Below, one piece after another: positions 39,901-45,900 of a stretch of 64,000 bases of DNA. Numbering within the stretch: position 1 is the stretch's first letter; each line of letters starts with the position of its first letter. The stretch comes from Elusimicrobiota bacterium (lineage in GTDB: Bacteria; Elusimicrobiota; Elusimicrobia; F11), in NCBI GenBank assembly GCA_044221725.1, contig JBGAON010000005.1, positions 64,001 through 128,000 of the forward strand, given 5' to 3'. Position numbers: made by a program.

Positions 39901-42900
39901 GTCAACGCGCAAAAGAGAAGAAGCTCGGCGGCGAAGTGCTTTGTTTCGTTTGGTAGTTCGAAAGATTAATTAAGGATTTCATATGACGACTGTAGTTGAA
40001 AAAACAAAAAAAGAAGCGCCGTTATCCCGATTGGGCCGCAAGCCCGTTGAGATTCCGCAGGGCGTGAAAGTCACCGTTAACGCGGGCACGGTTCAAGCGG
40101 AAGGTTCGCGTGGAAAATTGAGTTGGACATTGCCGAGTTTGATCACGGCCAAAGTGGAAGGAAATTTGGTGAAACTTTCTCCGGTTGAAAACACCAACCA
40201 GAGCAAAGCGCTCCATGGTTTGTCGCGCAAGCTCGTGCTGAACATGGTGGAAGGCGTCACAAAAGGTTTTCAGAAAAGACTCGTCATTGAAGGTGTCGGT
40301 TTTCGTTCGGCGGTTGCCGGAAATAAACTGACGATGACATTGGGTTTTTCACATCCGGCGGTGTTCGAAATCCCGAAGGACATCAAAATTATTACAGATC
40401 CCAAAGCGCCAAGCTTTTTGGTGATTGAGGGCAACGACAAACAGCGCGTGGGCCAAGTGGCAGCGCAGATTCGATCGATTAAGAAACCGGAACCATACAA
40501 AGGAACCGGAATCCGCTACGAAAACGAAGTGATCAAACGCAAAGCCGGTAAAGCAGCGGCCGGTGCGGCTGGCGCAGGTGCAGCGGGTGGAGGGAAGAAA
40601 TAATGAAGGTTAAATCTCGCGCCGAGCGTTACAACTTCCGGAAACTGCGCGTTCAACAGCGGATTCGCAACGCCTCACTAAATCCTCGTTTGTCGGTGTA
40701 TCGCAGCTTGAAACACATTTATGCGCAAATCATTGATGATGCGCAAGGCAAAACGATTGTGTCGGCGTCATCAAAAGAAAAAGGTTTTTCAAAAGCCAGC
40801 GGTATCAAAGCAGCGACGATGGTCGGCGAAAATCTTGGTAAGAAAGCCGTGCAGAAAGGAGTTTCTGCGGTGGTTTTTGATCGCGGCGGTCGCCCGTATC
40901 ACGGCAGAGTAAAAGCGCTCGCTGATGGAGCGAGACAAGCAGGACTAAAGTTTTAAGGGACGAACATGAATAAAATTGATGCAAGCAATCTCACATTAAC
41001 CGAAACCGTCATCAAGATTGGCCGCGTGGCCAAAGTGGTGAAAGGTGGAAAACGTTTTTCGTTTAACGCGCTCGTCGTTGTTGGTGACGGCCAAGGTCAC
41101 GTCGGCGTCGGACTTGGAAAAGCGAAAGAAGTCCAATCGGCGATCAAGAAAGGCGGCACGCAGGCCACGAAAGATGTTGTGAAAGTCGCGTTGTCCGGCA
41201 CGACGATTCCCCACGATACGATCGGGAAATTTGGTTCCGGAGAAATTTTGCTGAAACCCGCAGCGCCCGGAACCGGTGTTATCGCCGGAGGTTCGGCGCG
41301 CGCGGTGCTTGAGGCGGCCGGCGTGAAAGACGTTCTCACGAAATCCCTGGGCAGCCGCAACCATTTCAACGTGGTGTACGCGACGCTTATGGGTCTCAAA
41401 AATTTGAAGCTTCCTGAAGACGTGTCGCGTCTTCGCGGCAAAACCGTGGAAGCGGATCGCAAGTTCGTACAGGAGCCTGTCAATGCAGTTGCATAATTTA
41501 AAACCCGCGCCGGGTTCACGTCCGGCCAAACACATCGTCGGTCGCGGCGAAGGCAGTGGTCTCGGTCAAACGGCCGGTAAAGGCCAGAAAGGACAATCGA
41601 GCCGCACCGGCGACACGATCATGCTTGGATTCGAAGGCGGTCAAACGCCGCTTTTCCGTCGTATTCCAAAACGTGGATTTAATCATCCGTCGAAAATTAC
41701 CTACGAAGCGATCAATTTGATTGTGCTCGAAGAGAAATTCAAGGCCGGTGAGCAAGTGGACGCAGAGGCGTTGTTCAAGAAAGGCCTCATCAAAACGGCC
41801 GCCGTTCCTTACAAAATTTTGGGTGTTGGAAAACTGACGAAGTCTTTGAAGATCACAGCGAACAAGTTTTCGAAGTCCGCGGAGAAAGCAATTAAGGCCG
41901 CGGGTGGTACGTCGGCAGCGGTGAAGTAAGCTTCGGTTCCGGTTTTCATGATCCAGTCCGTATTCGATCTTTTCAAAATTAAAGAGCTGCGCAAGCGCAT
42001 ACTCATTACGTTGGGTGTGATCGCGCTTTACCGTCTCGGTGTTATCATCCCGATTCCCGGTGTGAACGCGGACGCGCTGTCGGTTCTTTTTAAACAGCAA
42101 GCAAATTCGTTGTTGGGCTTTCTCGACGTTTTTTCGGGCGGTGCGCTGTCGCGGATGTCAATTTTCTCGATGGGCATCATGCCGTACATCAATGCATCGA
42201 TCATCATGAGTTTGTTGCAGGGCGCGCATGTGATTCCGTACTTGGATCATTTGGCAAAAGAAGGAGAAGCCGGTCGGAAACGTTTGAATCAAATCACGCG
42301 TTACGCCACGGTGGCCTTGGGGTTCATTCAGTCGTTCGGACTAACACAGTTGATTTCGCGTTTGCCGCTTCCGGGAGATATTCCGGTCGTTCTCAATCCG
42401 GGTATTGGCTTCACGCTAATGACGATGATTACACTTGTAACAGGCACCGTGTTTGTCATGTGGCTCGGTGAACAAATCACCGAATTTGGAATTGGAAACG
42501 GAATTTCGCTGATCATTTTTACGGGAATCGTGGACCGGTTGTGGCCTGCGATTCATAATGTCATTCGTGAAGTTTTTGAGTTGCAACAGCGCAGCTTGTT
42601 TGGTGCGGTGTTGGTTTTGGTTGTCGTGTTGGCCGTCACGGGACTTGTTGTATGGCTTGAAACCGGTCAACGAAAGATCCCGGTGCAATACGCAAAGCGC
42701 GTTGTTGGGCGAAAAATGATGGGTGGACAAAGCACGTTTTTGCCACTCAAAGTCGATCAGTCTGGCGTCATCGCGGTGATTTTTGCGGTGTCGCTGTTGT
42801 CGTTCCCGGTAACGATTGCATCGTTTTCGCCGCAGTCGGCGTGGGCGCATAAGATGAACGATGTGTTCAATCACGGTGCGTGGTGGTACAACCTGACCTA

Positions 42901-45900
42901 TGCGGCGCTTATTATTTTCTTCTGCTATTTTTATAACTCGGTGTCGTTTAATCCGAAAGATATCGCGGAAAATCTGAAGAAGTGGGGTGGTTTTGTACTC
43001 GGAATTCGTCCGGGCGAACAAACCGCTGCGTATTTGGAAAAGGTGATGGAGCGCATTACGCTCGGCGGCTCGTTAGCCGTGGCACTTTTAGCGGTGTTGC
43101 CAACAATTTTGCAACAAAAATTTAATGTGCCGTTCTTTTTCGGTGGTACGTCGATTTTGATCGTGGTGGGTGTTGCTCTCGACACGGTAAGCCAATTGGA
43201 ATCGCATTTGATTATGCGGCACTACGAAGGATTTAGCAAAACTGGCGCTGTCACGGGACGTGGCCGCGGTCGGTGGTATTCCGCGTAGTGAATATTGTTT
43301 TTCTCGGTCCGCCGGGTTCTGGAAAGGGAACTCAGGCAAAGGGCGTAGCGGACAAATTTAATTTGGTTCATTTGTCGACGGGTGATGCGTTTCGCGAAGC
43401 GATCGCGAACCAGACGGAACTTGGCAGAGAAATTAAAGGTTTTGTTGACAGCGGGAAGCTGGTTCCAGACGAATTGGTTTCGCGTGTTGTTTTTGAAAAA
43501 GTGGGTTCTTTAAAAAAGGGATTTTTGTTGGACGGGTATCCGCGAACTGTTGATCAGGCGAGAGCGCTTGATCAATACGCGAAGACAAAAAATATTTCGC
43601 TGGACGCGATTGTGTTCTTTGATGTGGACTTTGCCGAGCTTGTGAAACGACTGTCGGCTCGACGTCAGTGCCAGAGCTGCAAAGAAGTCTACAATCTCGT
43701 GAACAAAGCACCGAAAACGGCCGATGTGTGTGATAAATGTGGTTCGACGTTGTTGCACCGTCCCGATGATCAACCCGCGGTCGTCGAAGAACGTTTAAAA
43801 ATTTACACGCTGCAAACAGCTCCCGTTTTGGATTTTTATAAAGCACGAGCGGGTTTTCACCAGGTTAACGCTGCACAGCCAATTGAGAAAGTAAGCGCGG
43901 ACATAAAAGCAGCGCTGTCAAACTAAACGTGGGAAACGTTTCGGCCAAGGGTCAGGCAATCGAGTTAAAAACGAAAGCCGAGCTCGAAAAGATGCGGCAG
44001 GCGGGCAAAGTGGCCGGAGCAACGCTAAAAGCAGTGGTTGCCGCTATCGACGCGGGTGTTACGACAAAAGATTTGGACCGCGTTGCGGAAAATTTTATTC
44101 GCAAGAACGGCGGAATTCCGACGTTCATTGGATATCGTGGATATCCAGCTTCGTTGTGTGTCTCAATCAATAACGAAGTGGTTCACGGAATTCCGGGAAA
44201 CCGGAAATTGAAAGCCGGCGATGTGGTGAGTGTGGACGTGGCCGCAACCGTTGATGGATTTGTTGGAGACACGGCGACAACGGTCATCGTGCCTCCGGCG
44301 AAGGCGGACGCTCAAAAGCTCGTGGAGGTTTCGGAACGTTCGCTGCAAGCCGCGATTGATGCGATGAGGCCGGGAAACCGGCTGGGCGATGTTGGATTTG
44401 CGGTGCAGAACGTTGCCGAGTCAAACGGATTTGGAGTTGTCAGAGATTTTGTTGGCCATGGAATCGGACGCCGTATGCACGAGGAACCTGCGGTGCCGAA
44501 TTATGGAAAACCCGGGTCGGGAATGCGGTTGGAAGCGGGACTTGTTTTGGCCGTTGAACCGATGGTGACAATGGGCGATTGGCATGTGCGCGTGTTGGCC
44601 GATGGTTGGACGGTTGTGACGATGGATGGATCGCTCGCCGCGCACTTTGAACACACGATTGCGATCACGGAAAGTGGGCCAGAAGTTTTAACACGAGTTT
44701 AAAGGAAAGTAATGACGAAAGAAGACAAGATCGAAGTCGAAGGGACAATTTTGGAAGCGTTACCGAACGCGATGTTTCGCGTTGAGATGGAAGGCGGGCA
44801 CAAGATTTTGGCGCATATCTCAGGAAAAATGCGCATGCATTACATCAAGATTTTGCCGGGAGATAAGGTGAAAGTGGAATTGTCGCCGTACGATCTTACG
44901 AGAGGAAGGATTACTTACAGAGCGAAGTGATATTCCCTCTCTCTTTAGGGAGAGGGAAATCCCTCATCCCAACCTTCTCCCTAAAGGGAGAAAGAGACGA
45001 GAAAAAAGGACGATTTATGAAAGTCAGAGCATCCGTAAAAAAATTGTGTGACAAATGCCGCGTTATTAAACGGCACGGCAAAGTCTATATTGTTTGCGCA
45101 AACGCGCGGCACAAACAGCGCCAGGGATAACACTGTGGAAAATCAGTGTCGTAAATTAATTCAAATCGTAGAAACGGGGAGAAAATAGAATGGCTCGAGT
45201 AGCAGGAATCGATTTACCGAAAGCGAAACGCGTTGATATCGCGCTTCGCTACATTTACGGAGTGGGGCCGTTTCGTGCGAACCAATTGCTCGAAGCCACG
45301 GGCATTAACCCAGCGACGCGCGTGAAAGATTTAACCGAAGGCGACGTTTCGAAGATTAATACCGAAATCACGAAATCGTTTCGTGTCGAAGGTGATTTGA
45401 AACGTGAAGTGCAAGGAAACATTCGTCGCCTCATCGAAATCAATTCGTACCGCGGATTCCGCCACCGACGCAACTTGCCGGTTCATGGACAACGCACAAA
45501 ATCGAACGCTCGTACCCGTCGTGGACGTCGTCGTACCGTTGGTTCGGCAAAAGCCGAAGCCGCAGCAGCTTAATTAAGAGGAATTATGGAAGAGAAAAAA
45601 CCAGAAGCAAAAAAATCTGCGAAGCCAGCCGAAGGCGCGGCCGAGGGAAAAGCAGCAGCGAAAGCCGCTGGAGCAAAGCCGGCCGATAAACCGGTAAAGA
45701 AAAAGAAAGTTCAGCGCGACGTGAGTTTCGCGCGCGCGTACGTGCAGTGCACGTTCAACAACACAATCATTTCGATTACCGACGACCACGGAGGTGTTAT
45801 TTCCTGGGCGTCCGCCGGCAGCTCGGGGTTCAAAGGAACAAAGAAAGGCACCCCGTTCGCGGCGCAGGTGACGGCCGAGAAAGCCGCCAACAAAGCAAAG

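What a model noticed while it worked through the whole genome (the two positions that open the first line are those of the whole stretch)
41948..43288. No signal recognition particle at all (no Ffh, FtsY or 4.5S RNA) and no Der/EngA, in a genome full of giant membrane pro [...]
The genome encodes SecYEG (SecY = g00414, the place given), SecA, SecDF, YidC, YidD, trigger factor and Tat, but no SRP54-type GTPase (neither Ffh nor FtsY) and no SRP RNA. The same is true of 12 of 12 genomes of order F11 and of all 61 (protein) and 41 (RNA) sampled genomes of the phylum, some in one contig. The ribosome-assembly GTPases Der/EngA (absent in 12 of 12 of the order, 39 of 61 of the phylum sample), EngB and RsgA, and RelA/SpoT, are missing too. 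Targeting of its many multi-spanning proteins (up to 8,862 aa) must run without SRP.
Evidence so far: No SRP54/SRP_SPB/Ffh/FtsY row in pfam.tsv, ncbifam.tsv, swissprot.tsv. Six-frame PF00448: in the order only P-loop scraps of at most 24 bits; phylum 0 of 61 at E 1e-10 while 14 of 14 controls ring. RF00169: 0 of 12, 0 of 41, own also calls 113,115 (RF01854); controls ring in 12 of 14. Der TIGR03594: none over the cut-off in 12 of 12, best 141 bits is MnmE; phylum 22 of 61, all 18 of family f5. RsgA PF03193 none; EngB TIGR03598 best 58.5 bits vs cut 124; RelA_SpoT 1 of 12 in the order, not here. Checklist by table. YidC has no extended basic C-terminal tail.
(Added by a program. Inside this text positions count along the whole contig: contig position 64,001 is position 1 of the stretch shown here. 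"Call 12" and the like, gene names such as g00115 and contig names such as C1 are that model's own, and its searches are not shown. The text may have been shortened before it was handed on; [...] marks where a part breaks off. The agent that wrote the report below was given it as the finding of a first reader that could run no searches.)

Follow-up and report, generated by a model that had tools for sequence, protein, structure and literature searches.

The report
Bacterial phylum living without SRP
A whole bacterial phylum (Elusimicrobiota) lacks the near-universal machine that delivers new membrane proteins to the membrane, and several of its lineages have also lost the ribosome-assembly enzyme Der, which makes it a natural place to study how cells manage without two supposedly essential parts.

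Summary
The absences are real. Window 41948-43288 is an ordinary SecY. No Ffh or FtsY was found in 401 phylum genomes (the two hits are flagellar FlhF), no Ffh M domain in 141, and no SRP RNA in 150 and 141; YidC, as control, was found in 119 of 121. Loss of both SRP RNA and proteins is already in print for Elusimicrobium minutum (2016) and hinted for the phylum (2021), so the RNA loss is not new. Not found in my paper searches: (1) der is cleanly excised between pgsA/hflX and plsY, at least four or five times independently, without the uL1/H78 loss seen in CPR bacteria; (2) SecY carries a nearly phylum-specific tail, RWFN (RWYSA here); (3) a ~200-aa degenerate MetH-reactivation-fold gene sits directly after secF (49 of 50 loci) and occurs in 195 of 201 genomes; (4) this family also replaced RNase P RNA and RnpA with HARP. 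Most likely, ribosomes dock directly on SecYEG/YidC with SecA's help. A dedicated SRP substitute is possible but unshown. A word search of this scan's earlier notes found no such finding.

The parts
41948..43288 (+). secY, 446 aa; cytoplasmic loops C4 and C5 ordinary (equivalents of R255/R256 and the GIRPG motif with R357 are kept or conservatively changed)
43223..43285 (+). SecY C-terminal tail ending RWYSA; phylum consensus G-R-[IV]-K-G-R-W-F-N-[VI]-K
   Evidence: RW[FY] in 41 of 41 and RWFN in 38 of 41 phylum SecY; genome-collection pattern scan; tail pLDDT under 50 in a model of a relative's SecY
16342..19376 (+). 23S rRNA; the segments spanning H76-H78 and H24, and H59 within 4 nt, have E. 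coli-like length, so no CPR-type H78 loss
17763..17781 (+). 23S helix 50 motif; positions 17766, 17769, 17777 are E. coli 1320, 1323, 1331, here C/U/A, the state of Der-less families
34421..34702 (+). uL23, tunnel-exit docking protein; no extension
35889..36227 (+). uL22; ordinary
37464..37688 (+). uL29; short basic extensions only
38339..38668 (+). uL24; ordinary length
41483..41496 (+). uS5/uL15 overlap: no uL30 gene at its usual place, and none found elsewhere in G000

Best explanation
Shown: the phylum lacks Ffh, FtsY and SRP RNA in all genomes searched, and der was deleted from the hflX-pgsA-der-plsY-gpsA operon several times. Inferred: SRP was lost once, in the phylum's ancestor. Membrane proteins reach the membrane by the back-up routes known from E. 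coli: the translating ribosome, or the mRNA, docks directly on SecYEG/YidC, and SecA takes substrates with large exported domains co-translationally. The lineage tuned SecY by adding an invariant aromatic-basic C-terminal motif that serves as a docking site for a partner not yet identified (ribosome, SecA or another protein). Der loss may have been eased because a second Der site at the tunnel exit competes with SecYEG and SecA; that last step is speculative.
For: Absence with controls. Detection rates: YidC 119 of 121, SecY 50 of 50. No ffh upstream of rpsP in 5 of 5 genomes. One canonical SecA with its C-terminal metal-binding end, one YidC, and trigger factor are present. SecY C4/C5 loops are conserved across 41 SecY. 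Tail motif: 41 of 41; of 80 listed pattern matches in the genome collection, 72 carry Elusimicrobiota-lineage names, 5 are unnamed and 3 name other phyla, one of which is a chance match; Thermotoga and Thermus SecY align only up to GKIRGR and GRLRGRNR. SRP-independent insertion from membrane-bound mRNA via SecYEG/YidC: PMC10066597 (abstract). Co-translational SecA route: PMC5674894 (search listing). Exit-site EngA clashing with SecYEG, SRP, trigger factor and SecA: bioRxiv 10.64898/2026.02.15.706057 (passages).
Against: No experiment or expression data; the route is inferred from what is left. YidC has no ribosome-binding tail extension and is single-copy in nearly all genomes, so the known Oxa1/YidC2-type compensation (recalled) is absent. 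uL22, uL23, uL24, uL29 and exit-site rRNA lengths show no clear remodelling. About a quarter of the phylum keeps Der without SRP, so SRP loss does not force Der loss. The preprint does not mention H50 (0 occurrences).
Confidence: 0.5

Rival explanations
1. A dedicated non-homologous adaptor replaced SRP or FtsY: the ~200-aa protein encoded directly after secF (G000 C3:750339-750953, +), a catalytically degenerate MetH-reactivation-fold protein with basic ends and an acidic core, bridging ribosome or membrane and the Sec machinery.
For: Present in 195 of 201 phylum genomes, including reduced ones. First gene after secF in 49 of 50 loci, often with overlapping stop and start. Small family: 278 hits at E<=0.001 among 1.84 billion representatives; 11 of 12 hits that carry an organism name are Elusimicrobiota; Atlas clusters mostly Elusimicrobiota. 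Fold is that of TM0269 (1j6r: Z 19.0, rmsd 2.7, 181 aligned; TM 0.71), but an SPGY-type motif is found in only 3 of 125 members. Kept where the cobalamin cap domain is missing: family f2 61 of 61 against 1 of 32; f25 9 of 9 against 0 of 6 (different samples of the same families).
Against: Its downstream side is equally conserved: a DUF374 gene lies within about 2 kb in 20 of 20 diverse loci, with a WaaA-like gene (name from recall) nearby, so an envelope-lipid role fits the synteny as well. Gene order is strongly conserved in this phylum anyway. No GTPase or signal-binding groove is evident. Range outside the phylum is only partly tested: the word-index search scored 7,999 candidates, and one hit is labelled Bdellovibrionales.
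Confidence: 0.15
2. No special adaptation: slow-growing small cells tolerate SRP loss through SecA, trigger factor and quality control. The SecY tail, the secF-linked gene and the der losses are separate lineage traits.
For: SRP loss recurs in unrelated lineages (Leptospira, Dehalococcoides, SAR86: PMC4758666 section 19; endosymbionts: PMC4779614). Other housekeeping parts were also lost piecemeal here: uL30, the N-terminal half of RimM, RNase P RNA. The H50-Der association is not significant once tree structure is allowed for: 41 of 600 random labelings do as well.
Against: An invariant five-residue extension on an otherwise disordered tail implies selection for a binding function. Genomes of 2.5-4.6 Mb with many multi-spanning proteins (183 of 2,129 ORFs in G000 have 4 or more hydrophobic stretches) are not reduced symbionts.
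Confidence: 0.3
3. Artefact: SRP is present but too divergent for the profiles, or unassembled.
For: Genomes are mostly MAGs; rRNA was found in only 76 of 151. RF00169 misses one control genome, and large RNA searches use stricter filters. PMC7987157 reports one Ffh and one FtsY accession under Elusimicrobia.
Against: The same profile finds the more distant paralogue FlhF at 122-145 bits. Single-contig genomes are in the sample. Single-copy controls are found in 98-100%. Both SRP helix-8-like motif hits in G000 lie inside long ORFs.
Confidence: 0.04

Closest known systems
SRP-less bacteria: Elusimicrobium minutum and Dehalococcoides (PMC4779614), Leptospira and SAR86 (PMC4758666), reduced insect endosymbionts
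   Same: Both RNA and proteins of SRP are missing, with SecYEG/SecA retained. Leptospira also has a lineage-specific gene among its sec genes, postulated to help secretion.
   Different: Here the loss spans 401 sampled genomes of a whole phylum, including free-living 2.5-4.6 Mb genomes. The lineage-specific gene is a globular MetH-reactivation-fold protein after secF, not a low-complexity membrane protein, and SecY has a specific tail.
der loss in CPR/Patescibacteria (PMC12641178)
   Same: The essential 50S GTPase Der is missing in whole classes or families.
   Different: That paper gives der in over 99% of non-CPR genomes and ties its loss to uL1 and H78; its main text has 0 mentions of Elusimicrobi- (supplements not opened). 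Here uL1, bL9, Obg and Era are present in G000, and H76-78 keeps full length in all 41 phylum sequences aligned.
Stand-alone methionine synthase reactivation domain TM0269 (PDB 1j6r; Pfam PF02965)
   Same: Same fold and size as the secF-linked protein.
   Different: SPGY-type motif missing in 122 of 125 members; strongly basic ends; kept without cobalamin proteins; G000 has a 1,161-aa MetH of its own.
HARP protein-only RNase P (Pfam PF08745; Aquificaceae type, recalled)
   Same: RnpA and RNase P RNA are absent and HARP is present in 4 of 4 genomes of this family.
   Different: Combined here with SRP RNA loss. The related genome G064 keeps the RNA enzyme and lacks HARP.

Membership tests
SRP-less bacterium | No Ffh (NG plus M domain) | tested here: met
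   PF00448; PF02978 0 of 141; E. coli Ffh phmmer
SRP-less bacterium | No FtsY | tested here: met
   the only hits are FlhF
SRP-less bacterium | No SRP RNA | tested here: met
   RF00169; RF01854; profile-based, so a highly aberrant RNA is not excluded
SRP-less bacterium | Membrane proteins inserted without SRP in vivo | not testable with these tools
   needs a cultured strain
CPR-type Der-less ribosome | der absent | tested here: met
CPR-type Der-less ribosome | Shortened or lost 23S H78 | tested here: not met
   H78 segment 41-42 nt in all aligned sequences, as in E. coli
CPR-type Der-less ribosome | uL1 lost | tested here: not met
   uL1 present in G000, 209 bits; other genomes not tested
YidC-tail compensation (Oxa1 or S. 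mutans YidC2 type; features recalled) | Long basic C-terminal tail or second YidC | tested here: not met
   short tails in the 4 fully read sequences; one match in 114 of 119 positive genomes
MetH reactivation domain (secF-linked protein) | Fold | tested here: met
   model pLDDT 95.9; 1j6r Z 19.0, rmsd 2.7, 181 aligned
MetH reactivation domain (secF-linked protein) | SPGY-type motif (its role in SAM binding is recalled) | tested here: not met
   3 of 125 members; motif visible in 1j6r
MetH reactivation domain (secF-linked protein) | Co-occurs with a cobalamin-binding partner | tested here: not met
   PF02607 in 45 of 101 against the protein in 195 of 201
HARP | PF08745 full-length match | tested here: met
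   175 bits, 205 aa, G000 C3:177577-178176; activity not testable

The most novel reading that the evidence does not exclude
Elusimicrobiota replaced SRP with a phylum-specific system: a new SecY tail motif and a repurposed MetH-reactivation-fold protein encoded with secDF. Repeated loss of Der and a coupled change in 23S helix 50 then followed from the need to keep the ribosome exit free for direct docking.
Probability: 0.12. Interest if true: 0.9.

Novelty: new variant of a known kind. Interest (0 to 1): 0.62.

Why it matters
SRP and Der are textbook examples of essential, near-universal genes. How SRP-less, non-reduced bacteria place membrane proteins is an open question that PMC7987157 raised for this phylum. 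This work gives three concrete handles (the SecY tail motif, the secF-linked core protein, and Der-positive against Der-negative sister families with otherwise intact operons) in a phylum with cultured members (recalled). Repeated der loss outside CPR, with uL1 and H78 intact, is a separate natural experiment in 50S assembly. G000's family lacks both SRP RNA and RNase P RNA.

Tried and rejected
Complex prediction of the secF-linked protein with the SecY tail (G119 pair, alignments A3 and A4, residues 411-442) gave no answer: score 0.00 against a mark of 0.32, controls not folded. It is no evidence either way. SecF, SecD, SecA and DUF374 were not tried as partners. CPR-type rRNA loss rejected. 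YidC tail or duplication rejected. Exit-site protein extensions: none common to the phylum (part of the uL24 output was cut). Split or relocated der in G000 rejected: best hits of relatives' Der are MnmE and Era. H50 covariation: U1320/A1323-U1331 in 8 of 9 Der-positive families, and C1320 with a Y-R pair in 14 of 14 Der-negative families tested. Families f18 and f10 were left out (f18 because G004 also lacks plsY and shows no HflX-like hit, so the operon is probably unassembled; f10 because it is not in the protein tree; it fits the pattern). The null test gave 41 of 600 (about 0.07), and E. coli has Der with the C/C-G state, so this stays a lead. Pfam found nothing at E<=1e-4 in the 8,862-aa ORF or in the 2 of 4 pieces of the 18,006-aa ORF that were scanned. 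Pattern-based locus searches for the secF-linked protein could not run for lack of a conserved stretch, so its range outside the phylum is only partly tested. Sequencing-run tools were not used.
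Full report
Setting. The window is G000:C2:64001-128000 of a 2.82-Mb, five-contig genome, 93.9% complete. Names on related records place it in Elusimicrobiota. Positions 41948-43288 encode a normal SecY in the S10-spc-alpha operon.

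SRP absence. PF00448 finds nothing over cut-off in G000 (best 18.8 bits) and matches 2 of 401 phylum genomes, with 14 of 14 controls positive. Both hits lie next to flagellar genes and read as FlhF. The Ffh M domain is found in 0 of 141. E. coli Ffh and FtsY score at most 14.8 and 8.8 bits against all six frames of G000. SRP RNA is found in 0 of 150 with RF00169 and 0 of 141 with RF01854, also not in G000. YidC (119 of 121) and SecY (50 of 50) show that single-copy genes are detected. No ffh stands upstream of rpsP in 5 of 5 genomes. Caveats: rRNA itself is assembled in only 76 of 151 genomes, kin are not independent, and profiles cannot see a non-homologous replacement.

What is in print. [quoted passage not shown] PMC7987157 (passages) found few SRP homologues in the phylum and suggested SecY may have evolved to bind other proteins. 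PMC4758666 (passages and section 19) reports the same loss in Leptospira, Dehalococcoides and SAR86. Giant genes in Elusimicrobiota are noted in bioRxiv 10.1101/2023.11.21.568195 (passages; no mention of SRP). Searches showed no paper on der loss, the SecY tail or HARP in this phylum. I saw these as listings and opened only the papers named (also PMC10582724, passages, not relevant). The library lacks most subscription papers, and I opened no supplements.

Der. TIGR03594 matches 107 of 401 genomes, concentrated in certain families (f16 78 of 89, f4 9 of 9) and absent from others (f1 0 of 7 plus G000, f2 0 of 118, f3 0 of 47, f8 0 of 48). In Der-positive genomes der lies directly before plsY (6 of 6). 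In G000 pgsA abuts plsY in mid-contig (C5, about 459,400). hflX or pgsA abuts plsY in 19 of 21 Der-negative loci (G011 and G056 have other neighbours) and in G064, G112 and G001. A FastTree tree of 17 ribosomal proteins plus SecY (41 taxa, 3,041 columns, G112 dropped, rooted on E. coli, some deep nodes weak) needs six losses if der is ancestral. One of these, G004, is probably an assembly gap. Der-positive f4 and f12 are sister to Der-negative f1 with full support, and their der is syntenic, which favours loss over regain. PMC12641178 (abstract and passages) gives der in over 99% of non-CPR genomes and links its loss in CPR to uL1 and H78. Here H78 is full length throughout, and G000 keeps uL1 and bL9, Obg, Era and HflX (motif scan; HflX confirmed).

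Search for compensation. YidC is single in nearly all genomes and has a short tail. SecA and trigger factor are canonical. Exit-site proteins and rRNA lengths are ordinary. Two lineage-specific features stand out. First, SecY ends in a conserved extension: RW[FY] in 41 of 41 and RWFN in 38 of 41, beyond the point where Thermotoga and Thermus SecY stop aligning. Of the 80 listed, 72 bear Elusimicrobiota-lineage names (assigning the Endomicrobia genera to the phylum is recalled). The tail is low-confidence in a monomer model, as expected of a short binding motif (inference). Second, a ~200-aa gene follows secF in 49 of 50 loci (30 of these were the best matches and mostly one family, 20 were chosen across families) and occurs in 195 of 201 genomes. 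It has the fold of the stand-alone MetH reactivation domain without the SPGY motif, with mean charges of +7.6 at the N-terminus, -10 in the core and +4.2 at the C-terminus. It is kept where cobalamin proteins are missing. Its downstream neighbours are envelope-lipid-type genes, so synteny does not decide its role.

Possible link between the two losses. A 2026 preprint (10.64898/2026.02.15.706057; abstract and passages) shows E. coli EngA at a second site by the tunnel exit (h24, uL22, h59), clashing with SecYEG, SRP, trigger factor and SecA. In this phylum, 23S positions 1320, 1323 and 1331 in helix 50 track Der status in 22 of 23 families, but 41 of 600 tree-matched random labelings do as well, E. 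coli does not follow the pattern, and the preprint names no H50 contact. That H50 lies near the exit is recalled. This is a lead only.

Mechanism. Best reading (0.5): direct docking of ribosomes or mRNA on SecYEG/YidC plus co-translational SecA, routes described for E. coli in PMC10066597 (abstract) and PMC5674894 (listing), with the SecY tail as an added docking motif. Rivals: no adaptation (0.3), a dedicated adaptor (0.15), artefact (0.04). The absences themselves I rate above 0.95.

Verdict. Real and well controlled. The SRP headline is known for one species and hinted for the phylum. The repeated der excision outside CPR, the SecY tail and the secF-linked core gene are the new and testable parts. 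New variant of a known kind; interest 0.62. Earlier scan notes on this genome concern its giant proteins; a word search for this topic found none.

Noticed in passing
G000 C3:177577-178176 (+), locus L140; gap at C1 between rpmH and yidD (L022): Family f1 lacks RnpA and RNase P RNA and has HARP in 4 of 4 genomes tested; G064 (f5) has the RNA enzyme and no HARP. tmRNA is present.
   Followed up: partly
G000 C3:750339-750953 (+), locus L192:1501-2115: Unannotated phylum-core gene directly after secF, degenerate MetH-reactivation fold.
   Followed up: yes
G000 C2:63672-63896, just before the window (L027): RimM is reduced to its C-terminal ~80 residues; similar in G119, and no RimM-sized ORF was seen between the KH gene and trmD in G124.
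   Followed up: no
window 41483-41496: No uL30 gene between uS5 and uL15, and none found elsewhere in G000.
   Followed up: partly
window 16342-19376: 23S rRNA has insertions relative to E. coli: about 50 nt after position 280, 17 after 162, 15 after 545; the largest is shared across the phylum.
   Followed up: no
G000 C2:219210-273230 and C3:407319-448388: ORFs of 18,006 and 13,689 aa with an N-terminal hydrophobic stretch and few others; no Pfam match in the two scanned pieces of the first.
   Followed up: partly
L045 (G119:C24:152017-152811, -): A 6,931-aa open frame with a weak SecA_DEAD match (29.6 bits), like the SecA-like domains reported in Omnitrophota giant proteins.
   Followed up: no
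L004 (G121) and L005 (G319): FlhF beside flhA and other flagellar genes in only 2 of 401 genomes.
   Followed up: no
L033, L034, L036, L039 (family f4) and L035 (f12): Der of these families scores lower (428-459 bits against about 500 in f16), next to lineages that lost it; possibly relaxed selection.
   Followed up: no
SecY loop between TM2 and TM3 (alignment A4): A two-residue insertion (GAHV) in most but not all phylum SecY.
   Followed up: no
L065 (G003), L089 (G109): Insertions of about 700 nt in 23S helix 69, probably introns.
   Followed up: no
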